Assembly: GCA_001780035.1 (NCBI GenBank)
Contig: MFEY01000007.1
Span: 331,146-395,145, forward strand
DNA from: Candidatus Doudnabacteria bacterium RIFCSPHIGHO2_12_FULL_48_16
Lineage (GTDB): Bacteria > Patescibacteriota > Doudnabacteria > UBA920 > O2-02-FULL-48-8
DNA length: 64,000 nt
Direction: 5' to 3'
The stretch's first letter is position 1. The number at the start of each line of letters is the position of its first letter. Of the stretch, positions 4,798 to 56,330 are shown in pieces. The notes under the pieces are model-generated. The model was not told the origin of the DNA. It saw nothing but the letters and a program-made list of their open reading frames with translations, and ran no database searches. The translations under genes and the position numbers were made by a program.

Positions 4798-4818
4798 AAA
4801 CCGCCTCAACGGCGGTTT
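4798..4818. terminator. bidirectional intrinsic terminator
   Basis: AAACCGCC-TCAAC-GGCGGTTT hairpin with A-run upstream and T-run downstream between convergent genes. Confidence 0.7.
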
Positions 4819-7199: not shown

Positions 7200-8537
7200 T
7201 CATATCAGATACAACCGGTCGCGGATTAAATCAATTTCCTGTTTGGTTGAACTTTTTTCTTTAATGATCCTCTCAATTTTATCAATCGCATGGATAACCG
7301 TGGTGTGGTCGCGCCCGCCAAACAAATCGCCGATCGACGGCAGGGAGGTTTCCAGTTCCTTGCGGATAATATACATGGCAATCTGGCGCGGGTTGACGTA
7401 TTCTTTCTTGCGGGATTGTTTGACCATATCATCGGTGGTGACGTTGTAAAAATCCGCCACCGCCTCAATGATTTTTTTGGCGGAAACCCCGCGTTTTTTG
7501 GGCGGGGTGATGACATTGACCAAAACACCCTTGACTTGATCGAGCGTTGGTTTGGTGTTGTTGAGCTGGCAATAAACCATCAGGCGGTTAAGCGCCCCTT
7601 CCAGTTCGCGGATATTGCTTTGGATGTTTTCGGCAATGTAATTGAGCACATCCGGATCGATATTGTAGTTTTTCTCCCGGGCTTTGGTTTTCAAAATCGC
7701 CAACCGGGTTTCCAGATCCGGTGATTGGATATCTGCAATCATCCCCCACTCAAACCGCGAGACCAGCCGCTCTTCGATGGCTGGAATTTCCTTGGGCAGC
7801 CGGTCGGAAGTCATGACCACCTGCTTGTTGTTCTGGTGCAGGGCATTGAAGGTATGAAAAAACTCTTCCTGGGTCCCTTCCCGGCCGGCCAGAAACTGAA
7901 TATCGTCCACCAGCAAGACGTCCACGTTGCGATAAGTGGACTTGAACTGGTCGGCGCGCCCTTGGGACAGGGCGGTCACAAAGTCGTTAGTGAATCGCTC
8001 AGAGGTAACATATAAGATTTTGGCTTCCGGCTCGCGCTTTAACACTTCTGCCCCAACCGCTTGCATCAAATGGGTTTTGCCCAGGCCGACGCCGCCGTAA
8101 ATGAAAAGCGGATTATAGACTGAGCCCGGTTTTTTGCTGACGGCCAGGCTGGCCGCGTGCGCGAGTTGGTTGTGGGACCCAACGATAAAGGTATTAAAGA
8201 CGTATTTGGGGTTGAGAGTTTGATTTTCGGCCCGTCGGGGAGCCACACGCGATGCTTCCCGGGACATGGATGGAGTAGTGGGGGCCGGGAAATTGTTGGC
8301 GATCTGGTATTTAATTTCTTTGATTTCCGGCAGGAGGGTTTTGGCGGCCCTGAGGATTTCGGGATTATATTTGTTCTGCAGCCATTCCTTGGTGAAGGCA
8401 TTGGGAACGCCAACAATCAGGCTGGAGTCTGCTTTTTCGGTGATGGTGGTGTTCTTGAACCAGGTGGTGAAGTTGGCTTTTGAAAGGGTTAATTCGAGAT
8501 TTCCGAGAATGGCTTGCCAGAGCTGTTGATTAGTCAT
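7200..8537 (-). CDS. dnaA: chromosomal replication initiator DnaA
   Basis: 445 aa; GGVGLGKTHL Walker A, LLVDDIQF Walker B, C-terminal DNA-binding domain. Confidence 0.97.
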   Translation of the reverse strand: MTNQQLWQAILGNLELTLSKANFTTWFKNTTITEKADSSLIVGVPNAFTKEWLQNKYNPEILRAAKTLLPEIKEIKYQIANNFPAPTTPSMSREASRVAPRRAENQTLNPKYVFNTFIVGSHNQLAHAASLAVSKKPGSVYNPLFIYGGVGLGKTHLMQAVGAEVLKREPEAKILYVTSERFTNDFVTALSQGRADQFKSTYRNVDVLLVDDIQFLAGREGTQEEFFHTFNALHQNNKQVVMTSDRLPKEIPAIEERLVSRFEWGMIADIQSPDLETRLAILKTKAREKNYNIDPDVLNYIAENIQSNIRELEGALNRLMVYCQLNNTKPTLDQVKGVLVNVITPPKKRGVSAKKIIEAVADFYNVTTDDMVKQSRKKEYVNPRQIAMYIIRKELETSLPSIGDLFGGRDHTTVIHAIDKIERIIKEKSSTKQEIDLIRDRLYLI

Positions 8538-8749
8538 AAAGGGGATTCTGAATAGGGGCTAAAAGTAAATCTTTACCCATTTTAACAGATAAGTTATCCC
8601 CACGTCCATTGAAATTTTTTGGCTAACTTAAGCTAAAAATATAAGCCATTGTTTATAATATGTGGATTACCGGTGTATTAGTCTCACCTACTCGTCCATT
8701 CGTGACAAAAATTGGAAATTATATTATAATCATGGGGTCATTTTAATGT
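8538..8749. promoter_or_regulatory. candidate oriC segment / divergent promoters between dnaA and rpmH
   Basis: TTATCCCCA 8594-8602 and TGTGGATTA 8661-8669 (reverse complement TAATCCACA), each 8/9 to the DnaA box; AT-rich tract 8700-8730. Confidence 0.55.
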
Positions 8750-8884
8750 ATGCAACCAACTTATAACCCCAAAAAGCTCCATCGCAAACGGGTCCATGGC
8801 TTCCGCAAACGGATGCGCACCGGCAACGGCCGGGCTGTGCTGTCCCGCCGCCGGGCCAAGGGCCGCAAACGCCTGACGGTTTAA
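8750..8884 (+). CDS. rpmH: 50S ribosomal protein L34
   Basis: hand translation [44 protein letters not shown]; too short for the ORF track; stop overlaps rnpA ATG (TAATG). Confidence 0.93.
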
Positions 8885-9222
8885 TGCCGAAGTTAACTCT
8901 TCTTAAAACTGAAAAAGATTTTTCAGCTTTTCGCAAAAGCCAATCCTATCACTCAAAGCTCCTAACGCTTCGTGTTCACTTTGCGGCAAACCAAAACTTT
9001 CCACGTTTTGGTTTTATTGTCCCCAAAAAGGTTCTGGCCAAAGCCACGGCGCGCAATTTGGTCAAACGCCGGATCAAAAACCTGCTGGTTAAGGTCCAGC
9101 CCCGGCTCAAACCGGCCGACCTGCTGTTCTTCCCGAAAGCCGGCCTGGTCAAGATCAAATTCGGAGAGCTGGAAGAGATCGTGAATAAATTATTTACCGA
9201 CGCGCGATTATGGAAATCCTAA
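8884..9222 (+). CDS. rnpA: ribonuclease P protein component
   Basis: 112 aa basic protein; FGFIVPKKV...ARNLVKRRIK motif; follows rpmH. Confidence 0.9.
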   Translation: MPKLTLLKTEKDFSAFRKSQSYHSKLLTLRVHFAANQNFPRFGFIVPKKVLAKATARNLVKRRIKNLLVKVQPRLKPADLLFFPKAGLVKIKFGELEEIVNKLFTDARLWKS

Positions 9223-9437
9223 AATCTGTCAGCAAATTTTTGGCCCTGCCGCTGGTCGGCCTGGTCGTGGTTTATCAGAAAACACTTTCACCCGACCATG
9301 GACCGCAGCAAATTTTGTATCCGTATGGCTACTGTCAGTTTTATCCGTCCTGTTCGGAGTTTGCCCGGTTAAGTTTATTAAACGACGGCTTGCTGTCCCT
9401 GCCGCAAATAATTAACCGGCTCATTCGCTGCCGCTAA
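9210..9437 (+). CDS. yidD: membrane protein insertion efficiency factor YidD
   Basis: 75 aa; YQKTLSP...CQFYPSCSEFA motif. Confidence 0.88.
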   Translation: MEILKSVSKFLALPLVGLVVVYQKTLSPDHGPQQILYPYGYCQFYPSCSEFARLSLLNDGLLSLPQIINRLIRCR

Positions 9438-9441
9438 ATTT

Positions 9442-10244: not shown

Positions 10245-10763
10245 ATGAACGAGATACTTAAAAAAATTATTTTAGACTTACTGCGGCAGATGGGTTTTGA
10301 GGCCGAAGTTTATGAGCGGATGGAAGAAGACCGCACGGTTTTTAATGTCAAAACTAGAGACGCTCAGCTGTTGATCGGCAAGCAGGGTGCGAATCTGCAG
10401 GCTCTGCAGCATCTGATCCGAATTTTGTTTCGCAAGCAAACCAATGATGACCCGTCTCGCCCGGCGCGAGCCGAGGCGGACCGGTTTCCGTTTGCCGTCG
10501 ATATCGATGACTACAAAGACCAGCGCAGTTTGTATCTGAAGGAGTTGGCGCGCAAGGCCGCCCACCACGTGCGCCAAACCCGTAAGCCGGTGTCACTCGA
10601 ACCTATGCCGGCGCATGAGCGCCGGGTGGTCCATTCTTATCTTTCACTTTATAATGATATCGGTTCCGAAAGTGTGGGGGTGGAACCGAATCGCAAATTG
10701 ATTATCAAGCCCAAACAAAAACCCAAGGACAAGGATGGGTTTAATTTCGTCGAAAATAGTTAA
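10245..10763 (+). CDS. jag: Jag/KhpB RNA-binding protein (KH + R3H domains)
   Basis: 172 aa; C-terminal R3H-like ERRVVHSYL; follows yidC. Confidence 0.8.
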   Translation: MNEILKKIILDLLRQMGFEAEVYERMEEDRTVFNVKTRDAQLLIGKQGANLQALQHLIRILFRKQTNDDPSRPARAEADRFPFAVDIDDYKDQRSLYLKELARKAAHHVRQTRKPVSLEPMPAHERRVVHSYLSLYNDIGSESVGVEPNRKLIIKPKQKPKDKDGFNFVENS

Positions 10764-11545
10764 GCCCGGATCTTTAGTGGTTTAGAAATTTGCCAGATCA
10801 ATTCAAATTGGCCCTTTAGCATTTCAGCCAATTCTTCACTTTCAATCAAAAACCCGAAATTTTCCCGTGAGGATGAGATAAACCTCACGGTATTTTTGTA
10901 TATGGCGTACCCCAGGGAAAAATTAATGTTTGTTTGCGCGATTCGGACTTCCCTTTTGAATTCTGGGCCGAAAGCTAAGAATTTATGAACTTTGATAGAC
11001 GGGATTTGGTTTTGTGGCCAAATCACCTTGATTTTGATGTTGTTGGCTAATCTTTTTTTGTTGAATTCTTCTATAAAGTCAGGACCCAAAGTCTCCAACA
11101 CGTTCAGTATCGGCCAATAAGCCAAGAGGGTTATGTTTTCGTAGAGCAATAAATCCTTCATCATTTGCCGAAGTTCTTCCTGAGTTTCGAATAGCTGCAC
11201 CCGGGGCTGAAACAATTTACCATTCTTAGTATGTATACTTTTTAATTCATTCAAGGCTTGGCGGGCTTCAATAAGTTTATTCTCTTTTTCTTGGATTAAG
11301 AGATTGATTTTTTCGTATGGTGAAATAGCGAATAGTTTAATTCCATTTTTGAGAGTCTCAAAGACCAGACCCAGTTTAGTCATCTGGTCTAAAGAATTAT
11401 ATACTGTCGTCCGATTGGACTTTATTTGCTTAGCCAGAGAACTGGCTTTTTGAGGGCCGGTTAGAAGCAGGACCTCAAAAATTTGTATCTGAGAAGGATC
11501 CAAAGCAAATACTGAATAGATTGATTTTAAGTTCATTGTTGTCAA
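10760..11545 (-). CDS. TrmB-like winged-helix transcriptional regulator (paralog 1 of 5)
   Basis: N-terminal wHTH (IQIFEVLLLTGPQKASSLAKQIKSNRTTVYNSLDQMTKLGLV), coiled linker, C-terminal domain ending FELIWQ; stop overlaps jag stop. Confidence 0.7.
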   Translation of the reverse strand: MTTMNLKSIYSVFALDPSQIQIFEVLLLTGPQKASSLAKQIKSNRTTVYNSLDQMTKLGLVFETLKNGIKLFAISPYEKINLLIQEKENKLIEARQALNELKSIHTKNGKLFQPRVQLFETQEELRQMMKDLLLYENITLLAYWPILNVLETLGPDFIEEFNKKRLANNIKIKVIWPQNQIPSIKVHKFLAFGPEFKREVRIAQTNINFSLGYAIYKNTVRFISSSRENFGFLIESEELAEMLKGQFELIWQISKPLKIRA

Positions 11546-13629: not shown

Positions 13630-14388
13630 ATGCCGCCAGTTTTTATGGCAGAATCCCAATTAGAGCGCATTCTTATCGAATATGGGCTTAGACAAAAACA
13701 AGCCAAGGTTTACTTGGCGTGTTTGGAAGTGGGTTCAGGCACCGTGCTGAAGATCGCCCAAGCCGCTGGCATGCCCCGTTCCACTACGGAACTGGAACTG
13801 AACCACTTGTTGGACAGCGGTCTGGTCTCCATGTATAAAAAGAAAAGCGTGAAGTATTTTAGTGCCGATGACCCTCATTCGCTTTTGAATTTACTGGAAG
13901 AAAAATCCGAACTAATCCAAAGAGCGCTGCCAAAATTTGTTTCTTTATATGGCAGCAATAAAACCAGGCCCTCAGTGCGATTTTACGAAGGCCGTCAGGG
14001 GTTGAAGCTAGTCTTAGGTGAAATACTTGTGGAAGCCAAGGAATTAATTTCACTTGGTTCAGCAGAGGATTTATTTAAAGTTTTGGAAGACTTTCCGGAA
14101 TTCGTAATGAAAAGAGTGGAACGTAAAATTCCTGTTAAAGTTATTCTTATAGATTCTCCGAAGGCCAGAGAGAGAAAGCTTCTGGGACCACAACAGCTTC
14201 GGCAGGTAAGACTGATACCGGAAACTTACAGTTATCACGGTCAATACAATGTTTGGAACAACAAGATCGCGATGTTTTCCTTTGGCCGTAATTTGTCAGC
14301 TGTGGTAATAGAAAGCCTAGAACTGGCGCAAATGCAAAAGGCTGCCTTTAATTTTATGTGGGACAGCCTGGAGGTCAAGAGAAATTAA
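13630..14388 (+). CDS. TrmB-like winged-helix transcriptional regulator (paralog 2)
   Basis: KQAKVYLACLEVGSGTVLKIAQAAGMPRSTTELELNHLLDSGLV wHTH; C-terminal AFNFMWD; stop overlaps ligase stop by 4 nt. Confidence 0.7.
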   Translation: MPPVFMAESQLERILIEYGLRQKQAKVYLACLEVGSGTVLKIAQAAGMPRSTTELELNHLLDSGLVSMYKKKSVKYFSADDPHSLLNLLEEKSELIQRALPKFVSLYGSNKTRPSVRFYEGRQGLKLVLGEILVEAKELISLGSAEDLFKVLEDFPEFVMKRVERKIPVKVILIDSPKARERKLLGPQQLRQVRLIPETYSYHGQYNVWNNKIAMFSFGRNLSAVVIESLELAQMQKAAFNFMWDSLEVKRN

Positions 14389-15587
14389 TTGTCTAAGTAA
14401 AATAGTGAAATCGCAAACCAAAACAGCACGGCTAAATCATTCTTGAAATAAGGGACATCGACCAAGCCGTGCAAAATCACAATCAGCAGGAATGCCGCGG
14501 CCGCCAGGCCCCACACCGTGGGGTGTTTTTTTTGCCGCTCGCCGACGGCACCTATGATCAGACCAAATGCCAGCAGCCCAAGCAAGCCGGTTTCGAGCCA
14601 GAAGTTCAGAAAAATATTGTGCGGATAATTGAGAATCTCTCCTTGAAAGTCGGCCGCGCTCAGAGTCGTGCGAAAACCGTGCAGTCCGTTGCCCAAAAAT
14701 GGTTCGTCTTGGATTTTTTGGATGCCAAGCCGCATGAGCTCCAGCCGGGCGTCACTGGAAGCATCGGAGACGGCGGAGACGAGCCGTTGCCGGATCGGAG
14801 CCACTCCCACTCCCAATGATCCGAGCAATACCAGGGTGACGATGGTCAGTACAGCCCGGCCGCTGTGGTTTTTGATCAGGAACAGAGTCAGGGTAATTGC
14901 AACCGCGAGCCAGGCGCCCCGGGAAAAGGTGAGAATCAAGGCCGCGGCCATGAGCAGGAGCCCCAGAATTTCCAGCCATTCGCGTTCAAATAACCGATAT
15001 TTTTTGTAAATTAAAATCGCAAACAGACCAAACAACGGCGCCAGGAACAAGGCCAGGGCATTCGGATAATCGAAAACCGAAGTTATGCGCTCCGGTTCTA
15101 TCCCCGTGCCCCAAAATCGGATTGGCAAGCCGGACAGGGTAAAATATTGGACGACGCCGAACAGCGAGATTAATCCGGAGCTCACAAACAATCCCTGCAG
15201 CGCCAATCTGATATTTGATTTTTCTTCCCATAGCAACACTAGCGCGTAAAATACCAAGACTGGTTCGATAAAGAAAGCCTTCAGTTCTCCCAGGGCCTTA
15301 AGTTTTTCCGGCGAGAGATAGGCGGCCACAGACGCGGCCAGTAAAAATAACCCGATGATCCAATTGAGCCGGCCGAGTTTGCGAAGCGGCCGGAAGTCCG
15401 GCTGTTGGGCCAGCAATCCGACAAGAAAAGCCAGGATTAAAACTTCAAGCAGAGTGGTTGGCAATCCCAGCAGCGTGAATCGGACTTGATAAGCCGGCAG
15501 CAAAAACAGCAGGACGGCCAAAGCCCAGCCAGGTTTTTTGAAAGCCAGATATAAGAAACAGACACTGATGACAAAAATGATCGTCAT
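14385..15587 (-). CDS. O-antigen ligase-like (Wzy_C) polytopic membrane protein
   Basis: 400 aa, about 10 TM; FSRGAWLAVAITL motif typical of Wzy_C/O-antigen ligase family. Confidence 0.7.
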   Translation of the reverse strand: MTIIFVISVCFLYLAFKKPGWALAVLLFLLPAYQVRFTLLGLPTTLLEVLILAFLVGLLAQQPDFRPLRKLGRLNWIIGLFLLAASVAAYLSPEKLKALGELKAFFIEPVLVFYALVLLWEEKSNIRLALQGLFVSSGLISLFGVVQYFTLSGLPIRFWGTGIEPERITSVFDYPNALALFLAPLFGLFAILIYKKYRLFEREWLEILGLLLMAAALILTFSRGAWLAVAITLTLFLIKNHSGRAVLTIVTLVLLGSLGVGVAPIRQRLVSAVSDASSDARLELMRLGIQKIQDEPFLGNGLHGFRTTLSAADFQGEILNYPHNIFLNFWLETGLLGLLAFGLIIGAVGERQKKHPTVWGLAAAAFLLIVILHGLVDVPYFKNDLAVLFWFAISLFYLDN

Positions 15588-21129: not shown

Positions 21130-21876
21130 TTATTTTATAATCTTATCATACGGCTCCGCTTGTTTCCAAGCAAACTCAAATAATGTCCGAAGCGACTGAT
21201 GAATGGTTTTGCTTTGAATTAATACAGCAAAAATATGCGGTTGATAGGAAAAAAACACCACGTTGCCATCGAATAAGCAATTATCTGTGAGAAATTCTTC
21301 TCCGGGTTTGGTAAATCGTTGTTGGTAATATTCAGTATGAGTTACATTTTCCGCGAATTTGAGGTCCGCGGGATTTTGAGTCAAAATCTCCAAGACTTTA
21401 GTTTTTTTGGCCAGTGTGTTGGCAACTAACTTTTTTTCATAATCCGGATAGATGGTGACAAAATCTCGGATAGTGCCGAAAAAAATAACCTCTTTGGCAT
21501 TTAAAATTTTATCATATAAATCTTTTATCGCTTCTTTGCCTTCAAACAATAAAACCTGTGGTTTATTTTTTGGTTCATTATAGACGGCCAGTAGGTTAGG
21601 CATGAACCTTTTGACTAGCTCTTGTTTGCGATTCAGATCCGAGAGGATTTTGTCCGGCGACTCTGGCATGTATAAAATCTTCTTCGCTCGCGGTACTAGA
21701 GCGGCCAATCCCTTCTTCTGTAGCTCGTCGAGGATCAGATAAGTCGTGGGGCGCTTAGTCCCCGCTTTCTTGGCGATCCCTTCAACTGAAGAGGTACCCA
21801 ATTCCAATAAAGCCATATAGACCATGGCTTCTTTTTGGTTTAATCCGATTTTCTCCAGTATTTCTGCGATTTCCAT
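21130..21876 (-). CDS. TrmB-like winged-helix transcriptional regulator (paralog 3)
   Basis: QKEAMVYMALLELGTSSVEGIAKKAGTKRPTTYLILDELQKKGL wHTH; C-terminal LFEFAWKQ; divergent from ABC operon. Confidence 0.72.
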   Translation of the reverse strand: MEIAEILEKIGLNQKEAMVYMALLELGTSSVEGIAKKAGTKRPTTYLILDELQKKGLAALVPRAKKILYMPESPDKILSDLNRKQELVKRFMPNLLAVYNEPKNKPQVLLFEGKEAIKDLYDKILNAKEVIFFGTIRDFVTIYPDYEKKLVANTLAKKTKVLEILTQNPADLKFAENVTHTEYYQQRFTKPGEEFLTDNCLFDGNVVFFSYQPHIFAVLIQSKTIHQSLRTLFEFAWKQAEPYDKIIK

Positions 21877-33071: not shown

Positions 33072-33695
33072 ATGAATCAAAAAGGATTTGCAAATATAGT
33101 TTTGATAGTAGTAATTATTGCCATTGTCGCTGTTGGTGGATATTTTGTTTTTTCCAAAAAATCAAATCAATTTAGTAAAAGTCCGATACCTACCTCGACT
33201 CAAAATTTCGGTCCAATCGCAGATTGGGAAACATACACCTTGCCGACTACGGACGAATTTTTAAGTCCAGCCCCAGCACTTGGTTTTAGTTTTCGCTACC
33301 CTAGTATTTTTCGGGCTCCAATACTTAGTTTTAATCGGGTTACGCCAGGGGATTCGCCGCGTCGTCAGATTAATATTTCTACGGGTAGCGGGTCATTTCT
33401 AGTAGATATTACCGTTAACGCTCGTAGTTACGGTGGAACAATAGTTCCTGAGTTAAAAAATACTTCGTCAGGTACTGTTGTATCCGGAGATAATCGTACA
33501 CTTACTTACCAGACTGGCCGATTCACTCCTCTAGGAGGTCCTGTGAGGATGTGGTATGTTGGCACTAGAGTTAATGAGGACGCTTACTTCATGATTAACG
33601 GAGATGTCTATTCCATTAGATTCTCGGCCAATGACGATAGTGATCAAACACAACTTGTCCGCCAGATCCTCTCTACAATCAAATTTACGAATTAG
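33072..33695 (+). CDS. hypothetical membrane-anchored/secreted protein
   Basis: 207 aa; N-terminal MNQKGFANIVLIVVIIAIVAVGGYFVF anchor. Confidence 0.5.
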   Translation: MNQKGFANIVLIVVIIAIVAVGGYFVFSKKSNQFSKSPIPTSTQNFGPIADWETYTLPTTDEFLSPAPALGFSFRYPSIFRAPILSFNRVTPGDSPRRQINISTGSGSFLVDITVNARSYGGTIVPELKNTSSGTVVSGDNRTLTYQTGRFTPLGGPVRMWYVGTRVNEDAYFMINGDVYSIRFSANDDSDQTQLVRQILSTIKFTN

Positions 33696-33786
33696 TTTTC
33701 AAAGAATTTGCCGCTAAAGAAAAACTTGCCTGTCCGCCGAAACTTTAGTGCAGGCGAAAAATTGTCAGCGGTGCGGCTCCGCCGCC

Positions 33787-35670: not shown

Positions 35671-36399
35671 TTATTCGATTGTTTTAGCCACTGGAGCCAC
35701 AGCCACGGGTTTCAAAAACTTTTTGTAAGTACCTTTGGTGTAAGCATACCAGGGTTGGAATCCGCGAGCCTTATATTTGAGCAAGGCAATGTCGAGGTTG
35801 AATTTGCAATCCCGCAATTGCTCAACGCTGTAAGGCGGGTGGTATTTGGGATTCCAGTTGATCTGAGCCAATCCGACGTCGAGCGAACCATTGCGGTTCA
35901 CGCCGCGGTTGTCGCGGGTACATTCATGGGTCCCATTTTCACCCTTTAGCACTGCGATAAAGATTTCACACTGGGCCAGACCCATCTTCGGACAGACATA
36001 AGCGCGGATTTCTGGCTCATGCATGTAAACTCGGTCATCGCCCAAAATCTTGGGCGGGAAGGAGTAAGAAGATTTGGTGACCGCAATTGTTTTCTTCGGT
36101 GCAATCACAACTGGAGCGGGCGCGGGATCAACGATCGGTTCCGGTTCAGCCACAGTTTCATCATTATCATTGTTATCAATGAAGTCAGAAATCTGTTGGA
36201 TGTTGGGAATTGTAATTGTTTGAAAGTTTTTTATTTCAAGGACTTGTCGTGTTTTGTTTTCCGCCTTCGCTAAAGCTATGGCGGACAAGTCAGTTGAGGC
36301 CATCGCTGCCTGGGGTAACAACAGGGTTGGCAGGATGGTTAGCAAACTGATCAAGATGATCCGGTTTGCTAAGGTCAACCGTTCAAAACGGCTAGTCAT
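35671..36399 (-). CDS. secreted lytic transglycosylase-like (SLT/lysozyme-like) protein
   Basis: 242 aa; signal anchor; C-terminal GENGTHECTRDNRGVNRNGSLDVGLAQINW resembles the SLT catalytic region. Confidence 0.6.
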   Translation of the reverse strand: MTSRFERLTLANRIILISLLTILPTLLLPQAAMASTDLSAIALAKAENKTRQVLEIKNFQTITIPNIQQISDFIDNNDNDETVAEPEPIVDPAPAPVVIAPKKTIAVTKSSYSFPPKILGDDRVYMHEPEIRAYVCPKMGLAQCEIFIAVLKGENGTHECTRDNRGVNRNGSLDVGLAQINWNPKYHPPYSVEQLRDCKFNLDIALLKYKARGFQPWYAYTKGTYKKFLKPVAVAPVAKTIE

Positions 36400-41027: not shown

Positions 41028-41393
41028 CTAATTCGACTCGGAAGCGTTTATCGGGCTCTTGGGTTCGGCCATCTTACAGGCGCCGGAAAAGTAAGCGCCT
41101 TCGCGTATGCCTAAGGAAGCGCAGCTGACATTGCCGACAATTTTGCCGGTTTCCAAAATTACCAGCGCGCCTTTGACCATGACGTTGCCTTTGACTGCGC
41201 CAGCCACGGTGGCATTGCCCGCAATCAAATCGGCATCAATCTGGGCGTTGGGGCCGATGATCAGATCCTGCGCGGTCTGGACTTTGCCGTTGACGATCCC
41301 GTCGATTTTGATATTGCCGGCGCTTTTGAGTTCCCCCTCGATCCGCATGGAGGAGGAAACAATGGTCTCGGCGAATTCTTGTATCTTGGCCAT
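41028..41393 (-). CDS. bactofilin (polymer-forming cytoskeletal protein)
   Basis: 121 aa; repetitive beta-helix pattern IEGELKSAGNIKIDGIVNGKV... Confidence 0.85.
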   Translation of the reverse strand: MAKIQEFAETIVSSSMRIEGELKSAGNIKIDGIVNGKVQTAQDLIIGPNAQIDADLIAGNATVAGAVKGNVMVKGALVILETGKIVGNVSCASLGIREGAYFSGACKMAEPKSPINASESN

Positions 41394-41428
41394 TTTAATT
41401 TATAATTTATAATCTAAAATTTATAATT

Positions 41429-41893
41429 CTATTTGGCGTCCTTTATTGCCTGCATTTCTTCTTCCGTCAGCTGGGTTTCGCTGCGGCCGGCCTTAACGGC
41501 CTTGGCATAAACGCGCGTCCCGTCCCGCCCATGGAGCGAGGACATGACAACGCCTTCATCCTTGGCATTCAGGAGCGCGAGCGTAAAACTGATATTGCCA
41601 CCGGCATCGTCAAACGGGTTGAATCGTACAAAGCCGACTTTCTGGATGTTATTCCGGTTACCGGTAAAAATTGTATCCAGGCTTTCGTCAATCTCTTTGA
41701 TTTGCTGGGTAATTTTGCTGATTGAGCGGTTCTGATCGATCAGGATTTGTTCCAGATCTTTTTTGAGGCCGGAAGAGAAAAATTCCCGCCGCATCCGATC
41801 CAGCCGGTGGAGCTTTAACGCCTGCCAAAAGACGATAATCAAAAGAGCTACGCTTAAAATAGTGCTGATTAAAGCTAAATATTGAGAATCCAT
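41429..41893 (-). CDS. DUF4446 family protein
   Basis: N-terminal TM, FVRFNPFDDAGGNISFTLALLN motif; start moved to M5 because the tracked start overlaps the tRNA. Confidence 0.65.
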   Translation of the reverse strand: MDSQYLALISTILSVALLIIVFWQALKLHRLDRMRREFFSSGLKKDLEQILIDQNRSISKITQQIKEIDESLDTIFTGNRNNIQKVGFVRFNPFDDAGGNISFTLALLNAKDEGVVMSSLHGRDGTRVYAKAVKAGRSETQLTEEEMQAIKDAK

Positions 41894-41904
41894 AAAAATT
41901 TCCA

Positions 41905-41978
41905 TGGTGGACCCGGGGAGAATCGAACTCCCGCCTCAGCAATGCGAATGCCGCGTAATACCACTTTACTACGGGCCC
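41905..41978 (-). tRNA. tRNA-Ala (CGC)
   Basis: hand fold of minus strand: GGGCCCG acceptor with G3:U70, CGGCA-TTCGCAT-TGCTG, GGGAG-TTCGATT-CTCCC, A73 CCA. Confidence 0.82.
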
Positions 41979-42442: not shown

Positions 42443-43192
42443 TTAATTCACTCTTTTCCCTATTTTACCAACTTCCCAGGTAATCTCAAAGAAATTATTT
42501 AAAGTCTGAAACAAATCTTCGGATTCGATAATGATGCCGAAGTTTTCTTTTTTCGTGCCAATGATCGAAACCTTGCGATCATACAAATAAATGGTCATGG
42601 GGAAAATCATTTTTTGCGGCGCGTAGCGCAACTCGCGGAACTCTTTTTGGCTGCTCGGCCAGGTTTCTTCCACCTCTTTGATCTCGGAGCGGATGACCCG
42701 CAGCTTGATCTGGGCCGCAATCCGCTTGGCAACGTATTCGTCCATAAATTGTTTCCCGGGGGTTTTGTATAAGTCCTCCATGGATAGAATGCCGCGTAGC
42801 GTTTTGTTGTTCACGGTCAGAGTGTCTTTGAAAACTTCTTTCATACCCTCGACGCCCTCATAAAATTTAATCCGGGGCCGAAAACCGGCCGAATTAAACA
42901 ACAACTTTAGTTCGGGCAACGCCTCGTCGAGCTTGTGTTCCTGCTCTTTAAGCAACAATTTGAGCTGGATGGGGGGTTCGGCCTCGAAGATCAAGGTCCG
43001 GCCGCGTTGGATTTTCCGGATCAATCCCCGATGGGCCAAGTGTTCCAAGATTTCATTGGCCGTGGTGCGCGGAACCCCGGCTTTATCCGCAATGGTCCGA
43101 ACTTTGGCGCGGCCCAATTCCAAGGCCGCCAGATAAACCTCGGCTTTGGTTTTATGGATTCCTAATTCCCCCAGAACCAGTTTAATATCCAT
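42443..43192 (-). CDS. TrmB-like winged-helix transcriptional regulator (paralog 4)
   Basis: KTKAEVYLAALELGRAKVRTIADKAGVPRTTANEILEHLAHRGL wHTH; C-terminal FFEITWEV. Confidence 0.72.
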   Translation of the reverse strand: MDIKLVLGELGIHKTKAEVYLAALELGRAKVRTIADKAGVPRTTANEILEHLAHRGLIRKIQRGRTLIFEAEPPIQLKLLLKEQEHKLDEALPELKLLFNSAGFRPRIKFYEGVEGMKEVFKDTLTVNNKTLRGILSMEDLYKTPGKQFMDEYVAKRIAAQIKLRVIRSEIKEVEETWPSSQKEFRELRYAPQKMIFPMTIYLYDRKVSIIGTKKENFGIIIESEDLFQTLNNFFEITWEVGKIGKRVN

Positions 43193-44065: not shown

Positions 44066-45385
44066 TTATTTTTGCAAAATCTTTTTGAGTTCTTCTCTGG
44101 CCACAGTCCGGTCATCCCACGGGATATAACCGCCCCGGACTGCCATTTTTTGTTCCGCGCCTTTGCCGGTGATCAGAATTAAATCATTGGCTTGCGCCAG
44201 GGCGAAAGCTTTGGCCATGGCTGCGCGCCGGTCCGGAATTTTATATAAATTTTGATTGAGGAGTTTGCCCTGTGCCATGCTGCCTGCCGCCATCTCATCC
44301 ATAATTGTTTGCGGGTCGTCGTCATACGGATCGTCGGTCGTCAGAATCACCACGTTCGCATTTTCTGCCGCGAGTCTTCCCAGCACCGGCCGGCGCGCCT
44401 GATCGCGGCCCCCGCCGGTTGACCCGAGGATTTGAATAATATTTTTTTCGCTCCAATTTTTGATTGTGGCGTAAACTTGCTTCAGGGCTGCGGGTTCGTA
44501 GGCATAGTCAACCAGGACTTGGAATGCCTGGCCCTCATCAACGAGCTCCATCCGGCCCGGGACATTGGGAATTTTTTCCAAGGCGTGCCTGGCCAGGCTC
44601 AGATCAATCCCTAAGCGCGAGGTTATGGCAATCGCAGCTAGGGCATTGTAAAGATCAAAAATTCCTTTTAAATTCAGGCTAAAATCCACGTCGGCCACGC
44701 GGAACGCCACTCCCCGTTCGCTGGCTTTCAAATCCATGCCGCGGATGTTGGCGACTTCTGCTTGGCCGTAAGTTATTTTTTGATCCACGCTGAAGTTCAA
44801 AAATTCCGCGGCCGCACGATCGTCAATGTTAGCCGCAATTATTTTGGGCACGCGCTGCTTGGCGATCGTCTTGTGCGGCAGATTTTGCAAAGTTTCAAAA
44901 TACTTTAATTTTGATTGTTTGTAATTTTTAAATCCCCCGTGCGCTTCCAGATGCTCCGGCGTTAAGTTAGTAAAGACCAGGCAATCATAATGAAGGCCAA
45001 CCTGGCGGTGCTGCAGGATTCCTTCTGAGGACGATTCAATCACAGCAAAGCCGGCGCCGTTTCGCACTCCCTGCGCCAGCAGGCGCTGCAGGAAGAATCG
45101 TCCCGGCATGGTCATCTTTAGATTATTGAGCCATTCGTTTTTGCCGTCGCTGAAACTGACGGTCGACGAGACCACGACTTTGTGCCGGGCCTCGCGTAAA
45201 ATTTCCGCGATCAAATTAACGGTCGTAGATTTGCCGTTGGTGCCAGTCACTCCGATCACGATCAGATTTTCCGACGGCCGGCCATAAATAAAATTGGCTA
45301 AGTGAGCCAGCATTAAATGATACCAGCCAAGCAAGAATTTCGGAATAAATTTTTTAATAAAGTTTTTCAATTTATAATTTATCAT
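44066..45385 (-). CDS. murE: Mur ligase, MurE-like (UDP-MurNAc-tripeptide synthetase)
   Basis: 439 aa; IGVTGTNGKSTT P-loop, VDYAYEPAAL (compare DYAHTPDAL), C-terminal Mur ligase domain. Confidence 0.75.
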   Translation of the reverse strand: MINYKLKNFIKKFIPKFLLGWYHLMLAHLANFIYGRPSENLIVIGVTGTNGKSTTVNLIAEILREARHKVVVSSTVSFSDGKNEWLNNLKMTMPGRFFLQRLLAQGVRNGAGFAVIESSSEGILQHRQVGLHYDCLVFTNLTPEHLEAHGGFKNYKQSKLKYFETLQNLPHKTIAKQRVPKIIAANIDDRAAAEFLNFSVDQKITYGQAEVANIRGMDLKASERGVAFRVADVDFSLNLKGIFDLYNALAAIAITSRLGIDLSLARHALEKIPNVPGRMELVDEGQAFQVLVDYAYEPAALKQVYATIKNWSEKNIIQILGSTGGGRDQARRPVLGRLAAENANVVILTTDDPYDDDPQTIMDEMAAGSMAQGKLLNQNLYKIPDRRAAMAKAFALAQANDLILITGKGAEQKMAVRGGYIPWDDRTVAREELKKILQK

Positions 45386-46709
45386 TTAAAATTTCATGCT
45401 GTAGGTTTGGCAAAGCCGCGAGTAATCCCAGCACGACAAACAGCATGAGTCTCCCCTGCTGAATTGTAACAAAATAATGATCAAACTGTCCCAGGATCAA
45501 AAAAATCAATCCTAGAAAGATCAGGGAAAATTTAAGCGGCCCAACTGGGCCATGCCGCGCGCCGCGGAAAATTTGGATGATGATCAGGACAAAAATAGCC
45601 AAAGCTCCGACACCGGATTCCGCCGCAATGAAAATAAAAATATTATGGGCCGGTTGGTATTGCCAGGCCTTCAAAGCATACAGATCCCGCAGTGCCGGCA
45701 CGTAGTTCCCTACCCCTACCCCCAGCCAGGGATGTTGGGCCACCAAGTTTAACCCTAGGTCATTGAAGAATCCACGGTCTGTAATGGAGGTTTGATTCTG
45801 ATCCAAAACCCGGGTTTTGAGTAGCTCAAAATAAGTTCCATCCGCCTTCGTTAAAACTCCGGCGGACAGGCATGAAACAATGCCAATAATGGCTAAGATA
45901 AGCGATTTTTTCCATTGTTTGTGCCAGAGCCAATAGATGCCAAAGCCCAAATATCCGATGGCCGTGGCCAACCAGGCTAGCCGGGAAAAAGTCACAAAGA
46001 TTCCGAGCGTGATTAAGATCGTTCCACATGAAACCAAGAATAGCCTTAGTTTTGTTTCACGCCTGCCCGCCGAAGCCTCGGCGAAGGCGGATGAAACCAA
46101 AAAAAAGCCCATAAATAAGGCAAAAATCAGGAAAGACGCTAAAACATTGGGGTGTGGGAATGTTCCGTAAGCCCGAATAACCTTCCCTCCCAGAGTATCG
46201 ATCGTGGCTAATCCCGTCGTTCCCAGCGGCGGGATATATTCCCCAAGGAATTTCAGGCCAAGCATATGTTGCACGTGAAACTGCCAGAGAGCCAAAATCG
46301 CCTGGGTAACCCCTAATATAAATAGTATAGTGGCTGAAAGCCGGAACTGAATTGTTTCACGGAATGTTTCACGGAGGTAAATTAGCAGTAATAATAGCTC
46401 AAACCATTTAAAAACCCCGTAAATCCCCAGTTTTATTTGTTTCACGTGGAACACCGAGACTACAACCCAGAGAAATAACCCCAATAATAGCCAGAGTTTG
46501 CTGGTCAGGCTAATTCGAGGGCGCTCAAAAACCAGCCAGCTTAAGAAACACAAAATTAAGATTAAATCAGTCAGATAAACAAAGATGGCCAGGTGGTAAT
46601 TGAAATACCAGGAGATATATGATTGGGCCGGATTATAAAGCATCCGGGTTTGAATGGGCAGCAATAATAGGAATAAATAAAAGAAAACTTCATGAAACCG
46701 AAGTTTCAT
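45372..46709 (-). CDS. O-antigen ligase-like (Wzy_C) membrane protein, second copy
   Basis: FSRLAWLATAIGYL motif, many TM; tracked ORF extends to 46847 but that extension is made of parS-type repeats, so start set at MKLRFHEVFFYLF (46709). Confidence 0.65.
   Translation of the reverse strand: MKLRFHEVFFYLFLLLLPIQTRMLYNPAQSYISWYFNYHLAIFVYLTDLILILCFLSWLVFERPRISLTSKLWLLLGLFLWVVVSVFHVKQIKLGIYGVFKWFELLLLLIYLRETFRETIQFRLSATILFILGVTQAILALWQFHVQHMLGLKFLGEYIPPLGTTGLATIDTLGGKVIRAYGTFPHPNVLASFLIFALFMGFFLVSSAFAEASAGRRETKLRLFLVSCGTILITLGIFVTFSRLAWLATAIGYLGFGIYWLWHKQWKKSLILAIIGIVSCLSAGVLTKADGTYFELLKTRVLDQNQTSITDRGFFNDLGLNLVAQHPWLGVGVGNYVPALRDLYALKAWQYQPAHNIFIFIAAESGVGALAIFVLIIIQIFRGARHGPVGPLKFSLIFLGLIFLILGQFDHYFVTIQQGRLMLFVVLGLLAALPNLQHEILNDKL
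46053..46098. repeat. imperfect palindromic element bounded by parS half-sites, inside the ligase CDS
   Basis: TGTTTCAC-GCCTGCCCGCC-GAAGCCTC-GGCGAAGGCGG-ATGAAACC; encodes the in-frame insert-like AEASAGRRETK. Confidence 0.55.
46438..46453. promoter_or_regulatory. parS centromere-like site
   Basis: TGTTTCACGTGGAACA; its reverse complement TGTTCCACGTGAAACA is the Bacillus-type parS as I recall it. Confidence 0.8.
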
Positions 46710-46773
46710 AAGCCAAGCTGATAAATGTTTCACGCCTGCCCGCCACGCCGCATTTTCTAGAAAATTTAAAAAT

Positions 46774-46789
46774 TGTTTCACGTGAAACA
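46774..46789. promoter_or_regulatory. parS centromere-like site (perfect palindrome)
   Basis: TGTTTCACGTGAAACA, 16/16 palindromic parS consensus. Confidence 0.85.
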
Positions 46790-46938
46790 TAAATTTTTGG
46801 CTAATATTATTGATAAAAGGCAAGGCAGGCGGGTGAAACATTGACATATTGAATAATTTATTTTTTAATAAAAATATGAATTTACATTTTGAGTTTCTGC
46901 TTTTTCAAGATATCATGGAACGTAAGAGGAGGTAACCC

Positions 46939-47187
46939 ATGACGCCAAGAATCGTCGTGGCCAAGGGAGCGGGGTTGATCCGGCAATACGCGCAGCTGCG
47001 TTCCCGCTGGGATCGTGAAGCCTGGCTTGCCAAGGCTGAGCGGGCCGTCAGCTTGTGCACAAGAGATGAAGAAGAAAGGCTCCTGGCCATGATCCGTCTC
47101 ACGCAATATGCGCTGGGACAGGGGAGCCCTTACCCGGATAATAAAGAAGGAGGAGACCATGGGACGAAGGGAGGAGGTTCTCGCTGA
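46939..47187 (+). CDS. hypothetical small protein (82 aa) in a GC-rich islet
   Basis: SD GAGGAGG 6 nt upstream of the ATG; no family recognised. Confidence 0.4.
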   Translation: MTPRIVVAKGAGLIRQYAQLRSRWDREAWLAKAERAVSLCTRDEEERLLAMIRLTQYALGQGSPYPDNKEGGDHGTKGGGSR

Positions 47188-47413
47188 TGCAATTGCGGCG
47201 CTTAATCGAGCCGCCTGGGCTCTGAATGAGCCTTGGTCAGAGCAGAGTGCGCGCCGCAATCAGGACACTCTCGCCGCCATTTGTCGCGCCTTGCCGTATT
47301 GTCAAGGGCAGTGGTCGAGCCGCTTGCCTGGCCATTTCCAGGCCGCGGCCGAGGCTATGAAACAAAAGCTTCTGGCGCGCTTGGCCCAGCCGGGGACACT
47401 CAAGGAGCGTTGA
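47159..47413 (+). CDS. hypothetical small helical protein (84 aa) in a GC-rich islet
   Basis: SD AAGGAGGAG 3 nt upstream of ATG 47159 (M18 of tracked ORF); overlaps the previous ORF by 29 nt. Confidence 0.4.
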   Translation: MGRREEVLADAIAALNRAAWALNEPWSEQSARRNQDTLAAICRALPYCQGQWSSRLPGHFQAAAEAMKQKLLARLAQPGTLKER

Positions 47414-55398: not shown

Positions 55399-55508
55399 GG
55401 TTTCCTCCATGGAAATCATTAGGGCCGCAATTGGCCGCTAGTTAACAGGTCTTGCCTGTTAACGTCAAAGCATATATTATATAGTTGGAGTGGCCAATAC
55501 CACCACGA

Positions 55509-55524
55509 GGTGATAATTATCACC
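55509..55524. promoter_or_regulatory. perfect 16-bp palindrome just upstream of TrmB-like paralog 5 (candidate auto-operator)
   Basis: GGTGATAATTATCACC, 8 nt before ATG 55533. Confidence 0.4.
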
Positions 55525-55532
55525 ACAAAAAT

Positions 55533-56330
55533 ATGTATCAAGAAACTCTACAATCCTTGGGATTAAGCCCAAATGAGGCGAAAATTTATGAAACCCTGGT
55601 CGGGACTGGGGAGACGACTATTGGGGACATTGCCGTGGCCGCCAAAGTTCACCGGCGGAATGTTTATGATTCCGTTCAACGCTTGATTGAAAAAGGCCTG
55701 TGTTTTGAGGTTTTTTCGAGCGGCGGGAATTTATATAGCGCAGTCGATCCAGGTAAACTTTCCGAATTGGTGGCGGAAAAACAACAAAAATTAGAATTGA
55801 TTTTACCAGAATTGCAAAAGAAATTTCGGAAAGGAACTGAGAAGGAAGAAGCTTACATTTATAGAGGCTTTGAAGGTCAGAAAAATGTTTGGCGTGATAT
55901 ATTGCGAGTTGGTAAAGACAGTTATTTTATTGGAGCCAAAGGAGGTTGGTTTGATCCGCGGATTGATAAAACTGCCCGTGATGTTTTTTTCCGCGAAGCT
56001 AATCGAAAAAAAATAAAATTTACTCAACTATTTGATTATGAAGTTAAGGAGCAAATGCCGGACTTTCCGCGTTATTTTCCAGGAGACTTAAAATATCGCT
56101 TTCTCCCAAAAAAATATTCCACTACTTCCGGGGTTGGGATATTTGGGGATTATGTGATTACTTACACCGGGTTAGGGGTTATTGGCCGAATGGAGGAGAA
56201 TACTGTATTTTTTATTTTACACAGCAAAGATTTGGCAGAATCCTACCGGACTTGGTTTTGGTATATGTGGGAGCAGTCGGAGGAAGATAAAAAGCCACGT
56301 AGCGCGAATCACGAAACACGTAACAAATAA
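55533..56330 (+). CDS. TrmB-like winged-helix transcriptional regulator (paralog 5)
   Basis: start at MYQETLQSLGLSPNEAKIYETL (M17 of tracked ORF); wHTH; C-terminal WFWYMWEQ. Confidence 0.7.
   Translation: MYQETLQSLGLSPNEAKIYETLVGTGETTIGDIAVAAKVHRRNVYDSVQRLIEKGLCFEVFSSGGNLYSAVDPGKLSELVAEKQQKLELILPELQKKFRKGTEKEEAYIYRGFEGQKNVWRDILRVGKDSYFIGAKGGWFDPRIDKTARDVFFREANRKKIKFTQLFDYEVKEQMPDFPRYFPGDLKYRFLPKKYSTTSGVGIFGDYVITYTGLGVIGRMEENTVFFILHSKDLAESYRTWFWYMWEQSEEDKKPRSANHETRNK

What the first reader, a model, noticed from the sequence alone, without database searches (positions are those of the whole stretch)
46020..46842. Dense parS cluster with composite half-site/GC-clamp repeats, inside and upstream of a membrane-protein gene
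**Seen directly.**
- A perfect palindromic parS, TGTTTCACGTGAAACA, at 46774-89.
- A second full site, TGTTTCACGTGGAACA, at 46438-53.
- TGTTTCACG half-sites at 46053-61, 46353-61, 46365-73 and 46726-34.
- An inverted GTGAAACA at 46833-40.
- A 13/16 site at 46020-35.
- Three half-sites are fused to the same GC-rich tail (TGTTTCAC-GCCTGCC(C)GCC). Two of these, in inverted orientation (46726-45 and 46822-40), bracket the perfect parS.
- A third forms an imperfect palindrome at 46053-98. It lies in frame within the ligase-like CDS, giving the odd peptide AEASAGRRETK.

**Established knowledge.** ParB nucleates on 16-bp parS sites clustered near the origin. dnaA is about 38 kb away in this window.

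**Inference.**
- This is the chromosome's centromere-like region.
- The half-site/GC-clamp units look like a small mobile or expanding repeat that disperses ParB half-sites. I have not seen that described.
- The 5' 138 nt of the tracked ORF (46710-46847) is probably not coding.
Basis: partly seen in the sequence, partly recalled or inferred. Interest (0 to 1): 0.55.

Follow-up and report, generated by a model that had tools for sequence, protein, structure and literature searches.

The report
Gene-embedded centromere sites split by hairpin repeats
This is the chromosome-partition (parS) site cluster of a Doudnabacteria (candidate phyla radiation) genome, sitting inside a membrane-protein gene where related bacteria also keep it, and several of its sites have been cut exactly in the middle by small GC-rich hairpin repeats.

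Summary
Eight of the window's ten TGTTTCAC 8-mers fall within 790 bp, 38 kb from dnaA.

In 80 related Patescibacteria loci (1.22 Mb), all 66 near-perfect parS lie in or within 1.5 kb of the orthologous Wzy_C gene. The sites are read in frame as FHVK, QFHVQH and VSRET. Codon choice shows selection on the DNA itself (Val = GTG in 55 of 55, p = 6e-36).

The "half-site + GC clamp" units are ancestral parS or parS-like palindromes split at the dyad by inserts of 30, 30 and 99 nt. The closest ortholog has all three palindromes intact, with no target duplication. The 99-nt insert carries its own perfect parS. The inserts belong to a dispersed GC-rich hairpin repeat that also occurs away from parS and in frame in other genes.

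ParB was not found in the window, so its presence in this genome is unverified. A relative has canonical parAB 7 kb from its parS-bearing gene. The centromere reading is supported. "Mobile repeat" is partly right. "5' end non-coding" is not supported.

The parts
45372..46847 (-). Host gene: Wzy_C (O-antigen-ligase-like) membrane protein. Likely start is the ATG inside the perfect parS (46790) or the outer ATG (46847). It overlaps the downstream Mur-ligase-like gene.
   Evidence: Pfam Wzy_C, E = 7e-19. P0001 is 100% identical and comes from Candidatus Doudnabacteria. Homologs are 436-448 aa, and many begin MFHVK.
46774..46789 (.). Perfect 16-bp parS, TGTTTCACGTGAAACA. It reads MFHVKQ in the ORF and sits at the centre of the 99-nt insert.
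46726..46840 (-). Nested unit. Outer parS halves lie at 46726-33 and 46833-40, separated by a 99-nt insert (46734-46832). The insert consists of GC clamp, AT-rich spacer, perfect parS, spacer and GC clamp.
   Evidence: The closest ortholog L206 has an uninterrupted caaTGTTTCACGTGAAACAtat with the same upstream flank. The same architecture occurs in L082, L081, L007, L091, L124, L143 and L160. It folds as a long hairpin: DNA dG = -26 kcal/mol, z = -5.3.
46438..46453 (.). parS with 1 mismatch. It reads VFHVKQ, and the V and K are invariant in 23 homologs.
46267..46282 (.). parS-like site with 2 mismatches. It reads QFHVQH. In gene orientation it is AGTTTCACGTGCAACA, a 16-mer identical in 10 related loci.
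46053..46098 (-). Split parS ('VS|RET' site). A 30-nt GC-rich hairpin insert at 46062-46091 lies between the two halves and reads SAFAEASAGR.
   Evidence: L206, L012, L015, L016 and L019 have an intact GTTTCACGTGAAAC at this codon position. Hairpin dG = -14.8 kcal/mol, z = -3.7.
45834..45879 (+). Split parS-like site ('IVSC|GT'). A 30-nt insert at 45841-45870 is a decayed copy of the same hairpin, in the opposite orientation to the gene.
   Evidence: It is 80% complementary to 46052-97. L206 has an intact TGTTTCATGTGGAACA here.
46020..46035 (.). Degenerate conserved site (12/16). It reads LVSCGT and corresponds to TGTTTCATGTGGAACA in orthologs.
46353..46374 (-). Tandem 12-nt duplication giving two half-sites. 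It reads RETFRET and is shared with P0002.
46692..46709 (.). Everted half-site pair, ATGAAAC-CGAA-GTTTCAT. It overlaps the alternative start codon M47.
36261..36289 (+). Copy of the same GC-rich hairpin repeat away from parS. It is in frame inside ORF 35671-36399(-).
33729..33756 (-). Another copy of the hairpin repeat away from parS, just 3' of ORF 33072-33695.

Best explanation
The region is the origin-proximal ParB-loading (parS) array of a Candidatus Doudnabacteria chromosome. The array is embedded in, and just upstream of, a Wzy_C-family membrane-protein gene.

This placement is ancient in Patescibacteria. The DNA sites are kept by selection on the nucleotide sequence. As a side effect they are translated as conserved peptides: MFHVKQ/H, LFHVK, QFHVQH, VSRET and VSCGT.

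In this genome, three sites still look usable by ParB (0, 1 and 2 mismatches). Three other ancestral palindromes were each split at, or within 1 nt of, the dyad. The splitting was a seamless insertion of a GC-rich hairpin repeat (30, 30 and 99 nt), with no target duplication. These insertions produced the 'half-site + GC clamp' units.

The repeat belongs to a dispersed family that also sits in frame in other genes. It appears to prefer the centres of palindromes or hairpin loops. Its long form carries a perfect parS of its own, so the N-terminal site is replaced rather than lost.

Shown here:
- the sequence anatomy;
- conservation of the sites in relatives;
- the codon bias at the sites;
- the empty-site comparisons;
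- the dispersal of the repeat.

Inferred, not shown:
- ParB binding;
- how the repeat moves (a trans-acting single-strand or hairpin-specific enzyme, or hairpin-mediated gain and loss);
- that short-form split sites are inactive.
For: parS cluster and its position:
- The parS consensus is matched and clustered.
- dnaA, dnaN and recF, and the GC-skew switch, lie 38 kb away.

Conservation in relatives:
- In 80 loci (1.22 Mb), 50 of 66 sites with <=1 mismatch lie in the Wzy_C gene +-300 bp. The other 16 lie within 1.5 kb of it, and none lie farther away.
- Sites occupy the same codon positions and frames across orthologs.
- At 55 FHV[KQE] motifs, Val is GTG in 55 of 55 (background 134/585, p = 6e-36) and His is CAC in 41 of 55 (p = 1.5e-8). 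Lys is AAA in 32 of 32 and Gln is CAA in 17 of 17. At VS[RC][EGA]T motifs, Ser is TCA in 33 of 35 and Arg is CGT in 14 of 14.
- Distant lineages (L025, L029, L048, L068, L056, L030) carry 4-7 perfect sites in and next to the homologous gene.
- L051 has canonical parA-parB 7 kb from its parS-bearing gene. ParB is common in CPR.

Inserts:
- The closest ortholog L206 (65% aa identity) has intact palindromes at all three insert positions, without duplications.
- The same clamp and architecture recur in other genomes and other genes.
- The 29-nt core is dispersed, including at non-parS places and in two other spots of the window.
- GGCGGRCARG is followed by a half-site 5 times out of 43, against 0.16 expected.
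- The site-4 insert is distributed patchily on the ortholog tree.
- The site-4 insert is 77-90% identical between orthologs whose 4-fold sites are only 40-46% identical.
- L204 has a second hairpin inserted in the loop of the first.
Against: - No ParB or ParA gene was found among about 55 ORFs of the window, nor in the flanks of the Doudnabacteria loci. No hit named Doudnabacteria was among the 120 best ParB homologs. A cognate ParB in this genome is therefore assumed, not shown.
- Copies of the repeat away from parS share no common 5' flank, so a strict target sequence is not established.
- The window was chosen because of this feature. Without it, the enrichment at half-sites rests on few cases (2 of 36 motifs, plus variant clamps in L006 and L010).
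- The outer half-sites of the nested units are perfect in four lineages, even where the clamps have decayed (L007). This hints that they may be functional rather than relics.
- No transposase candidate was identified.
Confidence: 0.7

Rival explanations
1. The half-site + clamp units are functional composite ParB sites rather than damaged ones. In this reading the GC-rich palindrome extrudes as a cruciform or bends the DNA so that the two halves are juxtaposed. Alternatively, each half binds one ParB monomer. Either way, the nested unit would act as a three-part nucleation module selected for centromere function.
For: - The outer halves are perfect in WIN, L082, L081 and L007, although the spacers are unrelated and the clamps of L007 have decayed.
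- The clamps next to the halves are better conserved than the spacers.
- The units fold strongly as single strands.
- Each ParB monomer contacts one half-site without subunit contacts (PMC8367383).
Against: - In orthologs that share the short-form split site, the halves decay: L203 on the left, L204 and L083 on the right. Unsplit sites at the same position stay perfect.
- The same hairpin occurs where there are no half-sites at all, including in GC-rich non-CPR genes.
Confidence: 0.15
2. The inserts arose locally by replication errors at the palindromic parS, such as template switching or snap-back synthesis that grows a palindrome from its centre. No mobile element would be involved.
For: - Insertions lie at the dyad of perfect palindromes and are themselves palindromic.
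- There is no target duplication.
- Seamless presence/absence is compatible with hairpin slippage.
Against: - Local errors would not produce the same 29-nt sequence, with defined asymmetric ends (CCGCC... / ...GGCGGGCAGGC), at different sites, in different genes and in distant genomes.
- The inserted sequence is not a copy of the flanks.
Confidence: 0.08
3. The repeated motif reflects protein-level constraint on the membrane protein (FHVK and VSRET motifs), or a binding site of another regulator such as one of the many TrmB-type HTH proteins. Its resemblance to parS would then be coincidental.
For: - The motifs are strongly conserved as peptides.
- Five TrmB-family genes lie in the window.
Against: - Synonymous codons are fixed to the parS sequence.
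- Sites occur in all three reading frames and in intergenic DNA next to the gene.
- The 16-mer equals the canonical chromosomal parS consensus.
- A second Wzy_C paralog in the window (14385-15587) has none.
Confidence: 0.04

Closest known systems
Chromosomal parS/ParB centromere sites (consensus tGTTNCACGTGAAACa, as in Bacillus subtilis and most bacterial phyla)
   Same: - An identical 16-bp palindrome.
- Several sites clustered within a few per cent of the chromosome from oriC.
- Sites tolerated inside coding sequences.
   Different: - The array is packed into one gene, with up to about 8 conserved positions.
- It stays in the orthologous gene across a whole superphylum.
- It dictates conserved peptide motifs.
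- The start codon appears to lie inside a parS.
- parAB is not adjacent here.
Rickettsia palindromic elements (RPEs) and other intragenic MITE-like repeats
   Same: Short palindromic repeats inserted in frame into unrelated protein-coding genes and tolerated as extra peptide loops (PMC10969869).
   Different: - Much shorter here: 21-30 nt for the short form and about 100 nt for the long form.
- GC-rich.
- No target duplication.
- A marked association with the dyad of a protein-binding palindrome.
- No sequence relation to RPEs was tested.
REP/BIME elements and insertion sequences that target palindrome centres (IS1397/ISKpn1 into REP loops; IS200/IS605-derived PATEs inserting 3' of a short motif, seamlessly)
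   Same: - Hairpin-forming repeats with distinct left and right ends.
- Insertion into the centre of another palindrome, including into a copy of itself (L204).
- No duplication, and apparently seamless loss.
   Different: - Mostly intragenic.
- No GTAG head.
- No RAYT or TnpA gene seen in the window.
- No fixed flanking motif at copies away from parS.

These comparisons rest on my own knowledge of those families, not on a test.
Integrative elements that rebuild their target (for example tRNA-gene-targeting islands that carry a replacement 3' tRNA end)
   Same: The long form lands in a functional cis-site and brings a perfect replacement copy of that site.
   Different: - The element is about 100 nt and non-coding.
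- The target is a centromere site rather than a gene.
- The analogy is functional only.

Membership tests
Chromosomal parS (ParABS centromere) | 16-bp palindrome matching tGTTNCACGTGAAACa | tested here: met
   One perfect site, one with 1 mismatch and one with 2 mismatches.
Chromosomal parS (ParABS centromere) | Sites clustered in the origin-proximal part of the chromosome | tested here: met
   The cluster lies 38 kb from dnaA/dnaN/recF and from the GC-skew switch. There are no other sites in the 64 kb window. The rest of the genome was not seen.
Chromosomal parS (ParABS centromere) | Sites conserved in relatives by selection on the DNA | tested here: met
Chromosomal parS (ParABS centromere) | Cognate ParB (ParB_N + HTH_ParB) encoded in the same genome | tested here: inconclusive
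   None in the window or in the Doudnabacteria locus flanks. Canonical parAB lies next to the homologous locus in L051, and ParB is abundant in CPR.
Chromosomal parS (ParABS centromere) | ParB binds, loads as a CTP clamp and spreads from the site | not testable with these tools
   This needs biochemistry or ChIP.
Classical MITE | Terminal inverted repeats plus a target-site duplication | tested here: not met
   Inverted arms are present, but empty-site comparisons show no duplication.
Classical MITE | Many dispersed copies | tested here: met
   The 29-nt core occurs in 13 CPR places and 6 GC-rich contigs among 2 Mb held. There are two extra copies in the window.
RPE-like intragenic palindromic elements | Palindromic repeat inserted in frame in unrelated ORFs | tested here: met
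   Host genes seen are Wzy_C, UPF0102, ORF 35671-36399 and a NirD-like gene. All in-ORF inserts are multiples of 3, except L081_N and L124 (103 nt each, frames still open).
REP/BIME | Extragenic location and a conserved GTAG head | tested here: not met
   Most copies are intragenic and the ends read CCGCC... / ...GGCGGGCAGGC.
IS200/IS605-derived PATE | Seamless insertion 3' of a fixed 4-5-nt motif, with the cognate Y1 transposase in the genome | tested here: inconclusive
   Copies at parS sit seamlessly after TTTCA(C). Copies away from parS have no common flank. No transposase is in the window.

The most novel reading that the evidence does not exclude
Two linked claims.

First, in Patescibacteria the chromosomal centromere array is hard-wired into one membrane-protein gene. 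ParB's DNA site then dictates conserved peptide motifs, and even the start codon, of that protein across a superphylum.

Second, a family of tiny GC-rich hairpin elements inserts seamlessly into the dyad of these parS sites. Its long form carries a replacement parS, so a mobile element remodels the centromere without destroying it.
Probability: 0.35. Interest if true: 0.8.

Novelty: new variant of a known kind. Interest (0 to 1): 0.62.

Why it matters
- parS arrays are normally treated as loosely placed, origin-proximal sites. Here the array is locked to one coding gene over very deep divergence, which gives a clean natural case of dual coding: a protein sequence shaped by a DNA-binding protein's target.
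- It gives a ready marker for the origin region in fragmented CPR assemblies.
- The dyad-splitting hairpin repeats offer natural 'half-site' and 'nested-site' variants. These can test what ParB needs for CTP-dependent loading.
- The repeats point to a so far undescribed class of very small palindromic repeats that live inside genes of uncultivated bacteria.

Tried and rejected
- **ParB signature search.** I searched six-frame translations for GERRxRA. It found nothing, even in a true CPR ParB, so the motif was abandoned in favour of tblastn with the L051 ParB.
- **ParB homolog search.** The 120 best hits were all other CPR lineages, so it could not show a Doudnabacteria ParB.
- **Strict split-site detectors.** Searches for split sites with gap-free complementary arms missed even the window's own units, because the arms contain indels. 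I replaced them with clamp-motif searches and ortholog comparisons.
- **Metagenome scan.** The scan for GCGGGCAGGC(N)GTGAAACA returned mostly background hits in coding genes of GC-rich bacteria. About 12 low-GC hits were informative.
- **Rfam.** It gave no family for the region.
- **Literature.** Searches for parS in CPR/Patescibacteria, parS in O-antigen ligase genes, split or half parS with hairpins, and DUF4446 found nothing relevant.
- **Rejected readings.** CRISPR repeat: single copies, not an array. Intrinsic terminator: none predicted. Assembly artefact: the same architecture appears in many independent assemblies.
Full report
**1. What is in the sequence**

- The perfect parS TGTTTCACGTGAAACA is at 46774-89.
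- TGTTTCACGTGGAACA (1 mismatch) is at 46438-53.
- TGTTTCACG half-sites are at 46053, 46353, 46365 and 46726, and GTGAAACA is at 46833-40.
- The 19-mer TGTTTCACGCCTGCCCGCC is exact at 46053 and 46726.

- The site at 46020-35 matches 12 of 16, not 13.
- A 14/16 site at 46267-82 was missed.
- A second 46-nt palindromic unit at 45834-79, 80% complementary to 46052-97, was missed.
- An everted half-site pair at 46692-46709 was missed.

The clustering is not chance. Three sites with <=3 mismatches are found against 0.41 expected. Ten TGTTTCAC 8-mers are found against 2.09 expected, and eight of them lie within 790 bp.

**2. Context**

- The source is Candidatus Doudnabacteria. P0001 is 100% identical and its contig is 431,540 bp.
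- recF, dnaN and dnaA lie at 4818-8537 on the minus strand, with yidC just beyond. The GC skew changes sign there. The cluster is therefore about 38 kb from the origin.
- The cluster lies in and just upstream of ORF 45372-46847(-), a Wzy_C (O-antigen-ligase-like) membrane protein. A Mur-ligase-like gene follows it.
- About 55 ORFs of the window were scanned with Pfam. None is ParA or ParB.

**3. The sites are conserved in relatives, in the same gene, and at the DNA level**

An alignment of 23 homologs (46-64% identity) showed that each parS is read as a conserved peptide.
- The N-terminal site reads MFHVK(Q/H).
- A second site reads LFHVK, with V and K invariant.
- A third reads QFHVQH.
- A fourth, in another reading frame, reads VSRET.

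I fetched 80 homologous loci from species-representative genomes. Across them (1.22 Mb), 66 sites have <=1 mismatch. Fifty lie in the Wzy_C gene +-300 bp and the other 16 lie within 1.5 kb of it. None lies in the remaining ~0.9 Mb.

In Doudnabacteria orthologs the sites occupy up to about eight fixed codon positions, always in the same frame per position.

Distant Patescibacteria (Parcubacteria, Moraniibacteriota, Paceibacterota and others, 27-34% protein identity) carry 4-7 perfect 16-mers in and immediately downstream of the homologous gene.

Codon usage shows that the nucleotide sequence, not just the peptide, is selected.
- At 55 FHV[KQE] motifs in 23 genes, Val is GTG in 55 of 55 (background 134/585, p = 6e-36).
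- His is CAC in 41 of 55 (background 96/260, p = 1.5e-8).
- Lys is AAA in 32 of 32 and Gln is CAA in 17 of 17.
- At VS[RC][EGA]T motifs, Ser is TCA in 33 of 35 and Arg is CGT in 14 of 14.

Four-fold sites between these orthologs are only 40-46% identical. These identities are therefore not due to recent ancestry.

**4. ParB**

- ParB is not in the window or in the flanks of the Doudnabacteria loci.
- One related locus, L051, has a canonical parA-parB pair (ParB_N + HTH_ParB + ParB_C) 7 kb from its parS-bearing Wzy_C gene.
- A homolog search with that ParB gave 7004 hits. The 120 best were all from CPR-type sources, but none was named Doudnabacteria.
- The centromere reading therefore rests on the exact canonical consensus, the origin proximity and the conservation. 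It does not rest on a demonstrated cognate ParB in this genome.

**5. What the 'half-site + GC clamp' units are**

The closest ortholog, L206/P0002 (65% identity), has intact palindromes at exactly the three places where the window has composite units.

- **N-terminus.** L206 reads tatgtcaaTGTTTCACGTGAAACAtat. The window reads tatgtcaaTGTTTCAC + 99 nt + GTGAAACAttt. The insert spans 46734-46832.
- **The VSRET site.** L206 reads GTT TCA CGT GAA ACT. The window reads GTT TCA + 30 nt + CGT GAA ACA. The insert spans 46062-46091.
- **A VSCGT site.** L206 reads TGTTTCATGTGGAACA. The window reads TGTTTCATG + 30 nt + TGGAACT. The insert spans 45841-45870.

There is no target duplication at any of them. 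These three places account for the large indels between the two proteins. The others are a 1-aa indel, a 4-aa difference next to the third insert and a 3-aa C-terminal extension.

The half-sites are therefore the two halves of pre-existing palindromes. The GC-rich 'clamps' are the ends of an inserted hairpin.

**6. The insert is a repeat family**

- The ends are defined and asymmetric: CCGCC... on one side and ...GGCGGGCAGGC on the other.
- The same short form splits parS in L006 (21 nt) and in L104 (30 nt, inside a UPF0102 gene). A related copy sits in frame in the UPF0102 gene of L107, where the left flank is only a degenerate half-site.
- The long, nested form is half | clamp - spacer - full parS - spacer - clamp | half.
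- The nested form recurs at the same N-terminal site in L082, L081 and L007. L081 has a second copy splitting LFH|VK.
- The nested form also occurs between mnmE and folD in L091, in a distant Wzy_C gene (L124/L056), and in L143 and L160.
- The 29-nt core CCGCCTTCGCCGAGGCTTCGGCGGGCAGG (<=6 substitutions) is also found away from any parS. It occurs in L002, L006, L008, L010, L012, L041, L042, L081 and L104.
- Variant copies of the same hairpin repeat lie at two other spots of this window. One, at 36261-89, is in frame in an ORF. The other, at 33729-56, is just 3' of an ORF. They were found through the clamp motif GGCGGRCARG.
- With 1-3 mismatches, the core occurs in GC-rich non-CPR contigs. In one of these it sits in frame in a linker of a NirD-like gene.
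- The clamp motif GGCGGRCARG is followed by a half-site 5 times out of 43, against 0.16 expected. Three of those five are in the window itself.
- Nearly all inserts inside ORFs are multiples of three. Of those I measured in intergenic DNA, L091 (68 nt) and L143 (95 nt) are not, and L160 (96 nt) is.

**7. Dynamics**

- The 30-nt insert at the VSRET site is present in WIN, L083, L203 and L204. On a distance tree these lineages are interspersed with lineages that have the intact site, and basal lineages are intact. This needs either repeated insertion at the same point or repeated seamless loss.
- The insert is 77-90% identical among orthologs whose synonymous sites are near saturation.
- L204 has a second hairpin inserted in the loop of the first. 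This suggests a preference for palindrome centres in general.
- After a short-form split, the half-sites decay: L203 on the left, L204 and L083 on the right. This is consistent with loss of function of that site.
- By contrast, the outer halves of the nested units are perfect in four lineages. I cannot explain this under the pure-relic view, so it is the main support for the rival 'composite site' reading.

**8. The start of the gene**

- The N-terminal parS, with its ATG (A|TGTTTCAC...), is in the same frame in all 15 orthologs that have one.
- Twelve of the 23 aligned proteins are annotated as starting MFH.
- The N-terminal nested inserts are 99, 102, 102 and 103 nt long. The 103-nt one still leaves the frame open.
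- A promoter-like -35/-10 pair lies upstream at 46908-46879 on the minus strand.
The start is more likely 46790 or 46847 than 46709, but sequence alone cannot settle it.

**9. Mechanism, as far as it can be stated**

*Established knowledge.* ParB dimers nucleate on the 16-bp palindrome, one monomer per half-site, and then close as CTP-dependent clamps (PMC8367383). By that standard the 0-, 1- and 2-mismatch sites are the working centromere.

*Inferred.* The hairpin repeat enters at the dyad because the palindrome forms a hairpin in single-stranded DNA or is otherwise recognised. Short inserts inactivate a site. The long form brings a replacement parS. The enzyme, if any, is unknown.

**10. Comparison with known systems**

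- The parS array is a member of the canonical chromosomal parS kind, with the ParB criterion untested.
- The inserts resemble Rickettsia palindromic elements in being in-frame intragenic palindromes (PMC10969869).
- They also resemble REP/PATE-type elements in being seamless hairpin repeats.
- They fail the MITE criterion of target duplication and the REP criteria of extragenic location and a GTAG head.
- Literature searches in the held library found no description of parS arrays in CPR, of parS tied to a Wzy_C gene, or of hairpin repeats splitting parS.

**Verdict.** This is a real, conserved centromere array with an unusual gene-embedded, dual-coding layout. It has been remodelled by a small hairpin repeat. 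I rate it a new variant of known kinds.

Noticed in passing
window 41028-41905 (-); also L081 and L083: A DUF4446 gene and a bactofilin gene sit side by side 4-5 kb from the parS array. The order Wzy_C - Mur ligase - ... - DUF4446 - bactofilin is conserved in other Doudnabacteria loci. Bactofilins anchor ParABS in some bacteria, so a link to segregation is possible.
   Followed up: partly
window 36261-36289 and 33729-33756: Two more copies of the GC-rich hairpin repeat lie away from any parS. One is in frame in ORF 35671-36399(-) and reads LSAIALAKAE. The other lies just 3' of ORF 33072-33695.
   Followed up: partly
L137:8081-8109, and L145, L146, L177, L184, L192: The same 29-nt hairpin core, with 1-3 mismatches, occurs in GC-rich (67-69% GC) non-CPR metagenome contigs. 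In L137 it is in frame in a linker of a NirD/AsnC-like gene. The repeat family seems to cross phyla.
   Followed up: partly
L081:3823-3850, and L002 rel 760: A different GC hairpin with a GAAA loop (CCCCGCGAAAGCGGGG, read as HPRESGD) is inserted just after the VSRET-site position in several orthologs (P0017, P0021, P0029).
   Followed up: no
L205:~990-1010 (P0004); also P0010 and P0021: The N-terminal site reads TGTTTCAC-G-GTGAAACA ('MFHGET'), a parS with one extra base at the dyad. It could be a footprint left by loss of a nested insert of the L081 type.
   Followed up: no
L104:2679-3122 and L107:347-832: In two low-GC contigs, a UPF0102 (YraN-like nuclease) gene hosts parS-like sites and an in-frame copy of the hairpin insert.
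   Followed up: partly
window 10760-11545, 13630-14388, 21130-21876, 42443-43192, 55485-56330: Five separate genes with a TrmB-type HTH domain lie in the 64 kb window.
   Followed up: no
window 14385-15587 (-): A second Wzy_C paralog lies in the window with no parS-like sites at all. The array is therefore specific to one orthologous group.
   Followed up: partly
window 8538-9441: The dnaA-yidC intergenic region, at the GC-skew switch, is the likely oriC. DnaA boxes were not examined.
   Followed up: no
window 46939-47413 (+): Two small overlapping ORFs with no Pfam match run divergently from the parS-bearing gene.
   Followed up: no
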